Shown here in pieces: positions 12,001 through 15,000 of a stretch of 16,302 nucleotides of DNA. The stretch lies in UHGV virus genome UHGV-0148496. The stretch is one strand, 5' to 3'. Made by a program: the position numbers. The number at the start of each line of letters is the position of its first letter. The stretch's first letter is position 1. The DNA comes from a virus.

Positions 12001-15000
12001 TGGGTTAATGAAAAGTACACGCGCTGGGTTAAGACGCAGCCGTGTGCATGTTGTGGAAAGCCTGCTGATGATCCCCACCACCTGATAGGCCACGGTCAGG
12101 GGGGAATGGGTACAAAAGCGCATGACCTCTTCGTGCTGCCTTTGTGCAGAAAGCATCACGACGAGCTGCATGCGGATACCGTGGCATTTGAAGAGAAGTA
12201 TGGCTCCCAGCTGGAGCTGATATTTCGTTTTATCGATCGTGCGCTGGCAATAGGCGTGCTGGCCTGATTTTGTGGAGAAAGTTGATGCGTGATATTCAAA
12301 TGGTTCTTGAACGTTGGGGGGCATGGGTGGCAAATAATCACGAGGATGTGGAATGGTCATCTGTTGCTGCAGGTTTTAAGGGATTAATTCCTTCGAAAGT
12401 AAAATCCCGCCCGCAATGTAGCGATGACGATGGCCTGATCATTAGCTCTGCGATGACAGTTCTTAAGAAAAAGGAACCGTATCAATACGAATTACTGGAA
12501 ATGTATTATGTGTATGGGGTTACATTACGGGTGTTGGGGGTAAAACTGGGGATATCACTTAATCAGGTTGTTATCAGACTGCAGAAAGCTGAAGGGTTTA
12601 TTGACGGTTGTCTGGCAATGTTGGGGGTATCTTTAGAAATTGATTGTTACATATAGTAATAAATTCAATCAAAGTAAATAATCATATTTTATTATAACCT
12701 CCTGATGATACCTGTTCATTGGGAGGTTATTATGGATAAAAATGTAGAGCATGTATTAGTTGATGCAATTGAAAATAAGCAATCTTTAACAGTCGTTTAC
12801 TTAGGAGGGAGCCAGCCCGGAACATTAAGGAATATTTCTCCGATTAGTATAAATGGGGATAAATTGCGGGCAAGATGCCATAGTTCTGGAGCAGTAAAGG
12901 TTTTCAATCTTGGGAAAATACAGTTACCCAGTGACTCCTGCGCGGTATCTATGCACTATGGAGATTTAGAAGTTAAAGCTTATGAGACGATGCAGAGCGT
13001 AAATGACAACTTTCATGCCCTTTATCCTGAAGGACGATGGGGTGTTGATTTTAATGAGCATCGCTTTGCTTTATTTGATTTTTTTAAAAACGGGAAACGA
13101 AAAAAAACGGCATTTATGGCAATTGAGTTCAGGGAAAGAGATGAAGAGAAAATAATAACAGGTGTAACAATTGATATTGGTATATCTGGAACAGTGATTT
13201 CTGAGAAGTCCCGAATCCCAAAAAGACGACCATGGGTAGTGGTTGGTCCCGAACACGGAGAATACAGTACTTATTCAACTTTGGACAAGGCTGCTACAGC
13301 GTTTTTTGAGAGGCTTTCGTTGATAGCATCCGGCCTGGAAGATAATTGATTTTATGTTTGGTATTCAGAGTTCGCCGTGCTTAAGAAAGTCAAGATTCTA
13401 AAAATACTGAATGAGCTACTTGTGTTATAACAAAAATGCTATTAGTGTGTTAAGAGTGGTTACTTCGCCACACAACTTAAACCCGCCACTGAGCGGGTTT
13501 TTTGTACCTGTAAACTTGGTGCAGTACAGTAAACACGCTGGTGGTCGTGAATACTGGCTTTTTATCTTGCTGGCTTTTTAGACAAGAGTTATTGGTATGT
13601 CACGTTAACCGGAAAGGGTAAAAAGACATGCTGAAACAGCAGGATATGACAGAAACCGCCAGAGTTGTGTTTGATGAATTAAGCGTTACCGAACCGGCGA
13701 CAGTCGGGGAGATTGCGCAGAATACTTACCTTTCACGCGAACGCTGCCAGTTAATACTGACCCAGCTTGTTATGGCGGGTCTGGCAGACTATCAGTGCGG
13801 TTGTTACAGACGCCTTCAGTCCTGAAGGCTTTTTATTTGTGGTGAATGGGCGGCTGGTGGGGGGGCGACACCTGTCAGTCCTTTGCTTATGTGTTGATGA
13901 TAATTTACCTTTGGGGGCTATAATTGAGCTAACCAATTGCTAATGAAAGTAAAATTATAATGGCTGTTGTCTGTTCAGTTATCATGGTTTGCTCCCCAAT
14001 TAATATTTTTCTTGAAAAGGATACGTTGTCACTTAAGCCAGGCTCAGTTGTTCTGGCCACCAAATGCATCAGGGAGCTTTTCCTTATGCATTATGGCAAA
14101 GTTAAAATTGTCGATATAAGCGAATCCGTCGTAAGTCAATATCTGGAAAGTCAGCATAAGCTGACGAGGACTCGTCTGACTGACATTCCGCTTTACCTGT
14201 TGCTGGAACCCAACAATCCTGCGTTGGCTGCGGCTTTAATTACCAGCCAGGGATTTTCCGGAGAGGCCACGGATATGTTTCTTATGATGGCCTGCCTGTC
14301 TCTGTTTGAAACAGATGAACGGATGTCATTGTTTTTAAGTGGATGTTTATCCAGCATAAGTGCCAAAGTCAGGGCGATAATTCAGACAGATATATCAGCA
14401 AGCTGGACGCTTGGTGCGATTGCTCTACAGTTGCATATGAGTGAGAGTTTGTTAAAGACAAAACTGAAAAATGAAGGGGGCATGTTCAGTCGCTTGTTGC
14501 TGGAAGAGCGGATGCGTGTTGCTGTAAATATGTTATGTTCCCGGCATGGATATGGACAGGCTATAGCAGAAAAATGCGGTTATTCAAGCAGGTCCTACTT
14601 TATTTCTGTATTTCACCGCTATTATGGCTTCCCGCCAGACAGATATGTATCCAGGCAAGGGCTTGATTATTGATTTTCATCTGATTATTATTTTTTGGCT
14701 CGGCCCTTTAGCTCAGTGGTGAGAGCGAGCGACTCATAATCGCCAGGTCGCTGGTTCAAATCCAGCAAGGGCCACCATCACATACCGCCATTAGCTCATC
14801 AGGAAAGAGCGCCAGCCTTCGAAGCTGGTTGCGCGGGGTTCAAGTCCCCGATGGCGGTCCATTATCTGCATCATGCGTTGTTAGCTCAGCCGGACAGAGC
14901 AATTGCCTTCTAAGCAATCGGTCACTGGTTCGAATCCAGTACAACGCGCCACACTTATTTTCCCTGGCTCGCTTTTGTGGGCCTTTTTTTTAAATGTCTC

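What the first reader, a model, noticed from the sequence alone, without database searches (positions are those of the whole stretch)
13628..14673. Prophage-borne regulator pair (small wHTH + AraC-family) next to the tRNA cluster
An AraC/XylS-family regulator (certain from its C-terminal HTH) and a small PapI/FaeA-like ORF lie in the AT-rich cargo region. Prophage-encoded AraC-like regulators in EHEC (PatE and Psr-type, by recollection) reprogram host acid-resistance and virulence genes, so this pair may act on host targets rather than phage genes.
Basis: partly seen in the sequence, partly recalled or inferred. Interest (0 to 1): 0.5.

Follow-up and report, generated by a model that had tools for sequence, protein, structure and literature searches.

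The report
Known prophage PsrB acid-resistance regulator
The larger gene is a near-identical copy of PsrB, an already studied prophage regulator that switches on the E. coli acid-resistance genes, and the small gene beside it is an unrelated, widespread phage gene rather than its partner, so the finding is real but ordinary.

Summary

The 237-aa ORF (13960-14673) is an intact AraC/XylS regulator. It is 234/237 identical to the only AraC-family gene in EDL933 O-island 57, which is PsrB, and 90.8% identical to Sakai PsrA (ECs1087). It is 37% identical to PatE and 29-35% to GadW, YdeO and AppY.

The 65-aa ORF (13628-13825) is a real, conserved stand-alone winged-helix protein (phrog_331). It shows no PapI/FaeA signal.

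The two genes are not a functional module:
- An intrinsic terminator separates them.
- Homology breakpoints put the small ORF in the phage backbone. The psr gene and its promoter-like site (13897-14697) form a swappable cassette, replaced by a DNA methyltransferase in phiP27, SfV and Stx2a phages.
- The small-ORF block occurs about four times as often as the cassette.
- The small ORF is frameshifted beside psrA in Sakai.

Verdict: a known gene, a neighbour of unknown function, low interest.

The parts
13479..13506 (+). Intrinsic terminator T1 (AAACCCGC-6 nt-GCGGGTTT followed by a U-run). It corresponds by position to the late terminator tR' downstream of Q.
   Evidence: Perfect 8-nt inverted repeat. 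Fold energy -12 kcal/mol, z = -3.2. A hairpin plus T-run stands at the same position in nine loci, with different stem and loop sequences in some. SfV annotates the equivalent site as a putative rho-independent terminator. Calling it tR' is inference.
13507..13627 (+). Conserved leader upstream of the small ORF. It is shared by loci with different Q types and different downstream cargo.
   Evidence: Nine-locus alignment, with near-invariant sequence from about 13575 to the ATG. No promoter consensus was found here.
13628..13825 (+). 65-aa stand-alone winged-helix protein (phrog_331, function unknown). It belongs to the phage backbone, not to the psr cassette.
   Evidence: AlphaFold2 pLDDT 85.1 with helix-helix-helix-strand-strand order. 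Foldseek TM-score (query-normalised) up to 0.81 to IclR and MarR winged-helix domains. phrog_331 E = 6e-37. Best Pfam hits (TrmB, DprA_WH) are all below gathering scores.
13812..13834 (+). Intrinsic terminator T2, straddling the small ORF stop codon (GCCTTCAG-2 nt-CTGAAGGC followed by TTTTT).
   Evidence: Fold energy -10.5 kcal/mol, z = -2.3. The CCTTC/GAAGG core of the stem is kept in all nine loci while the bases between it vary.
13835..13896 (+). Conserved spacer shared by psr-bearing and methyltransferase-bearing phages. Its 3' end is the left breakpoint of the cargo slot.
   Evidence: Homology to phiP27 ends at 13896. Alignment. No Rfam match and no inverted repeat.
13897..13924 (+). Sigma-70-like promoter candidate for psr (ATGATA-16 nt-TATAAT, 10 of 12 matches), 36 nt upstream of the ATG. 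It starts exactly at the cassette breakpoint.
   Evidence: consensus scan only; the region as a whole has no more promoter-like sites than shuffled sequence. The site is nearly identical (one or two substitutions) in every psr locus in the alignment and absent from the three methyltransferase loci.
13960..14673 (+). psrB-type AraC/XylS transcription activator, 237 aa and intact.
   Evidence: Pfam and NCBIfam. 234/237 identical to the EDL933 O-island 57 protein. 90.8% to Sakai PsrA ECs1087. Full-length similarity from residue 1 to PatE, GadW, YdeO and AppY supports this start codon. GadX DNA-binding domain in the PDB, E = 7e-19.
14702..14777 (+). tRNA with CAU anticodon (ileZ type, annotated tRNA-Ile in relatives). 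It marks the right edge of the cargo slot.
   Evidence: phiP27 homology resumes at 14698.
14785..14861 (+). tRNA-Arg (UCG), argN type.
14875..14951 (+). tRNA-Arg (UCU), argO type.
14966..14991 (+). Intrinsic terminator after the tRNA cluster.
   Evidence: Fold energy -11.9 kcal/mol, z = -4.05.

Best explanation
Window 13897-14697 is a psrB-type cargo cassette (a 'moron'): a promoter-like site plus an intact 237-aa AraC/XylS activator of the YdeO/GadW/AppY/PatE subgroup. It sits in a cargo slot of a lambdoid prophage late region, between a conserved backbone block (terminator T1, 65-aa winged-helix gene, terminator T2) and the ileZ-argN-argO tRNA genes. Shown here: the protein is a PsrB allele with three substitutions (A103V, H196Y, I202V relative to EDL933). 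By my own placement of the helices from the Pfam domain boundaries, these three lie outside the two predicted recognition helices. Taken from the literature: PsrB binds the hdeA and gadE promoters and raises acid resistance, and PsrA and PsrB repress the LEE type III secretion system indirectly through GadE and YhiF. Inferred: in this host the protein is made from its own promoter during lysogeny and activates gadE and hdeAB. During lytic growth it would also be transcribed by Q-modified polymerase reading through T1 and T2. Its many AUA and AGA/AGG codons may be helped by the tRNAs immediately downstream. The 65-aa gene is a separate, much more widespread phage backbone gene of unknown function. 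Most likely it is a small nucleic-acid-binding winged-helix protein expressed as the first ORF after the late terminator. It is not a dedicated partner of Psr.
For: Identity to PsrB and the PsrA/PsrB relationship: with PMC10877973, PMC8565820 and PMC13502914. AraC domain and subgroup. Cassette boundaries: phiP27 shares window 13431-13896 and 14698-14988 but has a DNA methyltransferase in place of 13897-14697. SfV and Stx2a_1447 show the same swap, as does the first O-island 57 prophage of EDL933. Promoter-like site at the breakpoint and terminators T1, T2 and T3. Frequency in 5426 complete E. coli genomes: small-ORF block in 2842 genomes at 5288 places, psr cassette in 726 genomes at 1325 places. 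In more distant Psr homologues (63% and 59%) a methyltransferase lies between the small ORF and the AraC gene. In Sakai Sp4 the small ORF next to psrA carries a 1-nt deletion that removes the wing (ECs1086). Rare codons in psr: ATA 5 of 15 Ile, AGA+AGG 6 of 13 Arg.
Against: No expression or binding data exist for this window. The promoter is only a consensus match, and the Shine-Dalgarno sequence before 13960 is weak. The host's gad and LEE content cannot be seen in the window. In all psr alleles of at least 77% identity that were sampled, the small ORF lies directly upstream with a near-constant 134-138 nt gap (intact in ten loci, frameshifted in L023/L024 and Sakai Sp4, diverged to 71% in L025/L026). 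One comparison (L005 against EDL933 CP-933N) shows small ORF, psr and tRNAs present or absent together as a 1.54-kb block. Some co-inheritance therefore exists. Other intact copies of the small ORF in the same genome could supply it in trans where the local copy is frameshifted.
Confidence: 0.85

Rival explanations
1. The 65-aa winged-helix protein and the AraC regulator form a functional two-gene module. This would resemble safA-ydeO, or a small co-regulator that controls or assists Psr.
For: A near-constant 134-138 nt spacing, with the small ORF always directly upstream of psr alleles of at least 77% identity. In K-12, safA (65 aa) precedes ydeO, and YdeO is a relative of Psr. L005 and CP-933N differ by a block that holds both genes plus the tRNAs.
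Against: Terminator T2 lies between the genes, and a promoter-like site starts exactly where homology to methyltransferase-bearing phages ends. About 75% of small-ORF places have no psr cassette. A methyltransferase is interposed in L018 and L019. The small ORF is frameshifted beside intact psr in L023, L024 and Sakai Sp4, and Sakai is the background of the HnrS/psrA/gadE work in PMC13502914. SafA shows no similarity to the small ORF even at E = 1000.
Confidence: 0.08
2. The AraC regulator mainly controls phage genes, such as late-region, tRNA or lysis expression, rather than host genes.
For: It lies inside the late transcription unit between Q and the lysis genes, and in the Stx2k phage it sits directly upstream of the tRNAs and stx2.
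Against: The near-identical PsrB and the 91%-identical PsrA have documented host targets (gadE, hdeA, yhiF) according to PMC10877973, PMC8565820 and PMC13502914. The closest chromosomal and prophage relatives (GadW, YdeO, AppY, PatE) all regulate the acid-resistance network (PMC10057817). The cassette is dispensable and is replaced by a methyltransferase in sequenced phage genomes such as phiP27 and SfV.
Confidence: 0.05
3. One or both ORFs are decayed or spurious: a pseudogene with a degenerate helix-turn-helix, or a chance small ORF.
For: Many database entries are 195-aa or frameshifted versions. The ribosome-binding site of psr is weak.
Against: The reading frame is full length, with both helix-turn-helix Pfam models above threshold. 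The N-terminus aligns from residue 1 with PatE, GadW, YdeO and AppY. The exact 237-aa sequence is seen on about 1000 contigs. The small ORF is conserved across genera, with synonymous changes in excess and a confident fold.
Confidence: 0.02

Closest known systems
PsrB (z2104, EDL933 O-island 57 / CP-933O), prophage-encoded secretion regulator B
   Same: 234 of 237 residues identical. The gene order is the same: Q, terminator, 65-aa ORF, 134-nt spacer, AraC gene, tRNA-Ile. The block shares 95.9% DNA identity over window 13530-14992.
   Different: Three substitutions (A103V, H196Y, I202V). The window has three tRNAs where O-island 57 has two. The Q type differs (PF06530 against DUF1133), and an extra 214-aa ORF lies between Q and T1. 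No TerB or DUF3927 genes lie downstream. The host is not O157; the closest genome is the human isolate cM8a.
PsrA (ECs1087, Sakai prophage Sp4)
   Same: 90.8% identity. The context is very similar: PF06530-type Q, a cargo ORF, the small ORF, psr, ileZ-argN-argO, and the esterase homologous to the SASA-family gene at the window's 3' end.
   Different: 22 substitutions, including Q157R, T167I and R211W in the DNA-binding domain. The small ORF upstream of psrA is frameshifted (ECs1086, 79 aa). The cargo after Q is a CAAX protease rather than the 214-aa ORF.
PatE (z0321, EDL933 O-island 8 / CP-933H)
   Same: Prophage-borne AraC/XylS activator of acid resistance. 37% identity over the full length, including the shared N-terminal CSVI motif at residues 5-8.
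   Different: A distant paralogue, not an orthologue. It lies in a different kind of prophage remnant, at thrW, with no small ORF, no tRNAs and no late-region context.
GadW, YdeO, GadX (K-12 chromosome) and AppY (DLP12 prophage)
   Same: The same AraC subgroup, with full-length alignment (GadW 35%, YdeO 31%, AppY 29%; GadX 41% over the DNA-binding domain only). All converge on gadE and the acid fitness island (PMC10057817).
   Different: Low identity. The score of 108 bits falls far below the NCBIfam YdeO cutoff of 348. Their upstream signals differ (EvgAS for ydeO).
Small ORFs L23 of phiP27 and orf47 of SfV (phrog_331)
   Same: 92-97% identical to the 65-aa protein by tblastn (91-97% on re-blasting the fetched loci). 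Same position just after the terminator that follows Q.
   Different: In those phages the next gene is a DNA methyltransferase, not psr. No function is known for any member.

Membership tests
AraC/XylS family transcription regulators | C-terminal DNA-binding domain of about 100 aa with two helix-turn-helix motifs | tested here: met
   Pfam HTH_AraC 50.3 bits (cutoff 26.6) and HTH_18 39.8 bits (cutoff 33.6) over residues 155-230. PDB GadX DNA-binding domain E = 7e-19, Rns E = 5e-16.
Psr family (PsrA/PsrB prophage-encoded secretion regulators) | Close sequence identity to PsrB or PsrA | tested here: met
   98.7% to the only AraC-family gene of EDL933 O-island 57. 90.8% to Sakai ECs1087, named psrA in PMC13502914. 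The two reference proteins are 90.8% identical to each other (89.8% over 195 aa), matching the published 90%.
Psr family (PsrA/PsrB prophage-encoded secretion regulators) | Carried on lambdoid prophages and associated with Pch/PerC regulators and effector loci | tested here: inconclusive
   The prophage late-region location is met. By coordinate transfer from the TOE17 annotation, a PerC-family gene lies at window 8430-8924. Effector loci sit at prophage ends outside the window and cannot be seen.
Psr family (PsrA/PsrB prophage-encoded secretion regulators) | Binds the hdeA and gadE promoters, activates GAD acid resistance and indirectly represses LEE type III secretion | not testable with these tools
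   Known for PsrA and PsrB from the literature (PMC10877973, PMC8565820, PMC13502914). It is inferred here from 98.7% identity. By my own placement of the helices, the three substitutions lie outside the predicted recognition helices.
PatE orthologue | Orthology-level identity and the CP-933H context | tested here: not met
   37% identity and a different locus type.
YdeO (NCBIfam NF007407 equivalog) | Score above the curated cutoff | tested here: not met
   108.5 bits against a cutoff of 348. This is still the best-scoring model and it aligns over the full length.
PapI/FaeA family (small ORF) | Sequence match to the FaeA/PapI family | tested here: not met
   No FaeA hit for any of 22 members at E<=1. 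No PapI in a profile search of all PDB sequences at E<=10. No PapI in the top 50 Foldseek PDB matches.
Winged helix-turn-helix fold (small ORF) | Three helices followed by a beta-hairpin wing | tested here: met
   AlphaFold2 model with helices 4-17, 26-33 and 37-49 and strands 53-56 and 59-62, mean pLDDT 85.1. TM-score (query-normalised) 0.74-0.81 to IclR and MarR winged-helix domains.
TrmB family (Pfam PF01978), the name NCBI gives many members of the small-ORF family | Score above the Pfam gathering threshold | tested here: not met
   17.8 bits against a cutoff of 25.6. DprA_WH, MarR_2 and HTH_20 are also below threshold.
safA-ydeO type connector-regulator operon | The small upstream protein is homologous to SafA | tested here: not met
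   BLASTP of the small ORF against K-12 SafA gives no alignment at E = 1000. Only the 65-aa length and the gene order coincide.
Phage 'moron' (independently transcribed cargo cassette) | Own promoter, flanking terminator, and presence/absence or replacement polymorphism among related phages | tested here: met
   Replacement by a methyltransferase with sharp breakpoints at 13896/13897 and 14697/14698. Terminator T2 lies upstream. The promoter is met only as a consensus match; its activity was not tested.

The most novel reading that the evidence does not exclude
The 65-aa winged-helix protein (phrog_331) might be a gatekeeper of the late-region cargo slot. It is kept as the first ORF after the late terminator in lambdoid phages with at least three different Q types, and it precedes whatever cargo occupies the next slot (psr, DNA methyltransferase, tRNAs, stx). 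It could bind the conserved leader or spacer (13507-13627 and 13835-13896) and tune expression of the downstream cargo, including Psr and, in Stx2e, Stx2k and Stx2a phages, Shiga toxin.
Probability: 0.08. Interest if true: 0.45.

Novelty: already known. Interest (0 to 1): 0.15.

Why it matters
There is little new here. The AraC gene is a PsrB allele whose role (activating gadE/hdeA and indirectly repressing the LEE) is published, and the exact protein is already present on about a thousand public contigs.

Three modest points come out of the work:
- psr is a discrete promoter-plus-gene cassette. It alternates with a DNA methyltransferase in one defined slot of the late region.
- About 13% of complete E. 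coli genomes carry the cassette. They include non-EHEC human isolates and Stx2k phages, so Psr-driven acid-resistance tuning is not confined to O157.
- The neighbouring 65-aa winged-helix gene, present in about half of complete E. coli genomes, remains uncharacterised.

Tried and rejected
1. PapI/FaeA identity of the small ORF. Rejected: no Pfam FaeA hit, no PapI in the PDB sequence search, none in the top Foldseek matches.

2. safA-ydeO analogy. The 65-aa length and gene order match, but there is no sequence similarity.

3. Domain-fusion hints for the small ORF. A profile search of 1.84 billion representatives found only 89 hits. Nearly all are short stand-alone proteins of 60-110 aa, and three long proteins matched only in multiple short stretches that I judged spurious, so no functional clue emerged.

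4. Defence-system role. PADLOC gave only weak hits below significance: SWIM_XIII at E = 0.003 for the small ORF and WYL at E = 0.001 for the 214-aa ORF.

5. A known RNA in the conserved spacer 13835-13896 or in the leader. Rfam found nothing significant; the best match was STnc130 on the minus strand at E = 0.18. The only inverted repeats are the two terminators.

6. Locating psrA in CP-933N / O-island 50, where two reviews place it. tblastn finds no AraC homologue in resequenced EDL933 CP-933N or in Sakai Sp6. psrA was found in Sakai Sp4 as ECs1087, following PMC13502914.

7. The primary Psr and PatE papers (PMC7099609, PMC4288888, PMC3416394) are not held in the library. Functional statements therefore rest on two reviews and one 2026 paper.

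8. Source names in the protein databases gave no 'Psr' label.

9. Treating T1 as the StxS-type PR'-tR' small RNA. Sakai Sp5 has no small ORF and a different Q region, and no PR' could be defined here, so the equation of T1 with tR' stays an inference.
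Full report

The window carries a 65-aa ORF at 13628-13825 and a 237-aa ORF at 13960-14673, both on the plus strand. Three tRNA genes follow 28 nt later: CAU, Arg-UCG and Arg-UCU.

The setting is the late region of an E. coli lambdoid prophage:
- DUF968 protein at 11272-12267.
- Q antiterminator at 12270-12656 (Pfam Phage_antitermQ, 1.5e-47).
- A 214-aa ORF at 12705-13349.
- The two ORFs of the finding, then the tRNAs.
- A DUF1737/SASA esterase from 15459.

The closest complete genome is the human isolate cM8a, at 99.9% identity over 97% of the window. GC falls to 0.36-0.46 across 12400-14600 against 0.50-0.58 on either side. The lowest values belong to the 214-aa ORF rather than to the two genes of the finding.

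**The AraC gene is a PsrB allele**

The C-terminal 100 residues pass the Pfam thresholds for HTH_AraC and HTH_18. The best NCBIfam model is YdeO, aligned over the full length but far below its cutoff, followed by GadX.

I fetched EDL933 (NZ_CP008957) across 1,838,000-1,940,000, which covers O-island 57 and its flanks. It holds one AraC-family gene, at 1,905,274-1,905,987. The window protein is 234/237 identical to it. Two reviews place psrB (z2104) in O-island 57 and state that PsrA and PsrB share 90% identity (PMC10877973, PMC8565820).

A 2026 paper gives psrA as ecs1087 in Sakai prophage Sp4 (PMC13502914). I fetched that locus. Extended to the upstream ATG, ECs1087 is 90.8% identical both to the EDL933 O-island 57 protein and to the window protein, and 89.8% over the originally annotated 195 aa. 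The O-island 57 gene is therefore PsrB, and the window carries a PsrB-type allele.

Identity to other relatives:

| Protein | Identity | Extent |
|---|---|---|
| PatE candidate (EDL933 O-island 8) | 37% | full length |
| GadW | 35% | full length |
| YdeO | 31% | full length |
| AppY | 29% | full length |
| GadX | 41% | DNA-binding domain only |

These alignments begin at residue 1 and share the CSVI motif at residues 5-8. This supports the 13960 start rather than the 195-aa version found in many records. The three differences from EDL933 PsrB are A103V, H196Y and I202V. By my own placement of the helices from the Pfam domain boundaries, these lie outside the two recognition helices, so the same DNA specificity is expected. 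That is an inference. The gene is intact, and the exact sequence occurs on about 1000 public contigs.

**What PsrA and PsrB do, from the literature**

PsrB binds the hdeA promoter (-132 to -45) and the gadE promoter, raises acid resistance, and improves passage through the mouse stomach. PsrA and PsrB repress LEE type III secretion indirectly through GadE and YhiF. psrA responds to the phage small RNA HnrS (PMC10877973, PMC8565820, PMC13502914). The primary papers are not held in the library.

**The small ORF**

It is a real gene. Homologues of 77-98% identity occur in E. coli, Shigella, Salmonella, Klebsiella, Citrobacter and Buttiauxella, and in 55 phage records. Synonymous codon differences exceed non-synonymous ones. 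AlphaFold2 gives a confident three-helix plus beta-hairpin winged helix (pLDDT 85.1). Its best PDB matches are the winged-helix domains of IclR and MarR regulators and the N-terminal domains of O-methyltransferases.

All Pfam hits (TrmB, DprA_WH, MarR_2) fall below gathering scores. FaeA is not hit by any of 22 members, and PapI is absent from a PDB profile search. PHROGs files the protein as phrog_331, function unknown. A search of 1.84 billion representatives found only 89 relatives. Nearly all are short stand-alone proteins, and three long proteins matched only in short scattered stretches that I judged spurious. 'Small wHTH' is right; 'PapI/FaeA-like' is not supported.

**Are the two genes a pair?**

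Evidence for some linkage: in every psr allele of at least 77% identity that I sampled, the small ORF lies directly upstream. It is intact, with a 134-138 nt gap, in L001, L002, L005, L007-L011, L021 and L022. It is frameshifted in L023/L024 and Sakai Sp4, and diverged to 71% identity in L025/L026.

The weight of evidence points the other way:

1. A conserved hairpin plus U-run straddles the small ORF stop codon (13812-13834, -10.5 kcal/mol). The best promoter-like site in the scanned 3-kb region (ATGATA-16 nt-TATAAT, 10/12) lies at 13897-13924.
2. phiP27 shares window 13431-13896 and 14698-14988 but carries a DNA methyltransferase in place of 13897-14697. The left breakpoint coincides with the start of the promoter-like site. 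SfV, the Stx2a_1447 phage and the first prophage of EDL933 O-island 57 show the same swap.
3. Among 5426 complete E. coli genomes, the small-ORF block is in 2842 genomes (5288 places) and the psr cassette in 726 genomes (1325 places).
4. In loci with 63% and 59% Psr homologues, a methyltransferase lies between the small ORF and the AraC gene.
5. In L023, L024 and Sakai Sp4 the small ORF next to an intact psr has a 1-nt deletion that removes the wing. In Sakai this is ECs1086, 79 aa. Sakai is the background of the HnrS/psrA/gadE work in PMC13502914.

One observation runs the other way. L005 and EDL933 CP-933N differ by a 1.54-kb block that holds the small ORF, psr and the tRNAs together. Trans-complementation by other copies of the small ORF also cannot be excluded.

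**Model**

The late region reads: Q, a variable cargo ORF, terminator T1 (13479-13506, -12 kcal/mol, a hairpin kept at this position in nine loci with varying stem and loop sequences, annotated as a terminator in SfV), a conserved leader, the small winged-helix gene, terminator T2, a conserved spacer, the cargo slot (psr here), the tRNAs, and terminator T3 (14966-14991).

In a lysogen, psr would be transcribed from its own promoter. After induction, Q-modified polymerase would read through T1 and T2. Equating T1 with tR' is an inference, because I could not define PR'. In psr, ATA makes up 5 of 15 Ile codons and AGA/AGG 6 of 13 Arg codons. The adjacent CAU (ileZ-type) and UCU tRNAs would be expected to decode these, which is a plausible but untested link.

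**Verdict**

The 'pair' and the 'PapI/FaeA-like' label are not supported. Novelty: already known. The only open question is the function of the widespread 65-aa winged-helix gene.

Noticed in passing
window 16255-16302: The last 48 bases are Illumina Nextera adapter sequence (CTGTCTCTTATACACATCTGACGCTGCCGACGA, an index, then GTGTAGA). The esterase ORF that runs to the window end therefore finishes in an artefact.
   Followed up: partly
window 15028-15236 (+): Full-length match to the Rfam small RNA STnc100 (134.7 bits, gathering score 47), between the tRNA cluster and the esterase gene.
   Followed up: no
window 6606-6682 and 6707-6794 (+): Rfam matches to the isrK Hfq-binding RNA (61.6 bits) and the C4 antisense RNA (82.4 bits). 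Both lie inside the ORF annotated as a Rha-family regulator in relatives.
   Followed up: no
window 12705-13349 (+): A 214-aa AT-rich ORF (GC 0.395; phrog_8498, function unknown; weak sub-threshold WYL hit) occupies a second variable slot between Q and terminator T1. Related prophages hold other genes there: a CAAX/Rce1-like protease (Sakai Sp4, L008), a GIY-YIG nuclease (phiP27), two minus-strand ORFs (Stx2a_1447) or nothing (SfV, EDL933 O-island 57).
   Followed up: partly
L006 (EDL933 CP-933N) and L004 (Sakai Sp6), compared with L030 (Sakai Sp4): Two reviews place psrA (z1789) in O-island 50 / CP-933N. tblastn finds no AraC homologue in CP-933N of the resequenced EDL933 or in Sakai Sp6. psrA is ECs1087 in Sp4. 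Relative to a CP-933N-like prophage in another strain (L005), EDL933 CP-933N lacks exactly the 1.54-kb block of small ORF, psr and tRNAs.
   Followed up: partly
L030:18344-18583 (Sakai ECs1086): The small winged-helix gene upstream of psrA in Sakai Sp4 has a 1-nt deletion after codon 49. The result is a 79-aa product without the wing. The same lesion occurs in L023 and L024.
   Followed up: yes
L002 (phage phiSTEC1575-Stx2k) 5643-8324: In an Stx2k-converting phage genome, a 91.6%-identical psr allele sits between the small ORF and the tRNAs, directly upstream of stx2k.
   Followed up: partly
window 8430-8924 (+): An ORF corresponding to the gene annotated as a PerC-family (Pch-like) regulator, yfdN, in the near-identical TOE17 prophage. 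Psr genes are reported to be associated with Pch regulators (PMC10877973).
   Followed up: no
window 15226-15457, compared with L001:10809-11438: The anti-adapter gene iraM lies between the tRNAs and the esterase gene in the TOE17 prophage, and downstream of stx2 in the Stx2k phage. It is absent from the window, whose esterase allele also differs (71% DNA identity).
   Followed up: no
window 13960-14673 and 14702-14951: psr is rich in ATA (5 of 15 Ile codons) and AGA/AGG (6 of 13 Arg codons). The CAU and UCU tRNAs encoded immediately downstream would be expected to decode these.
   Followed up: partly
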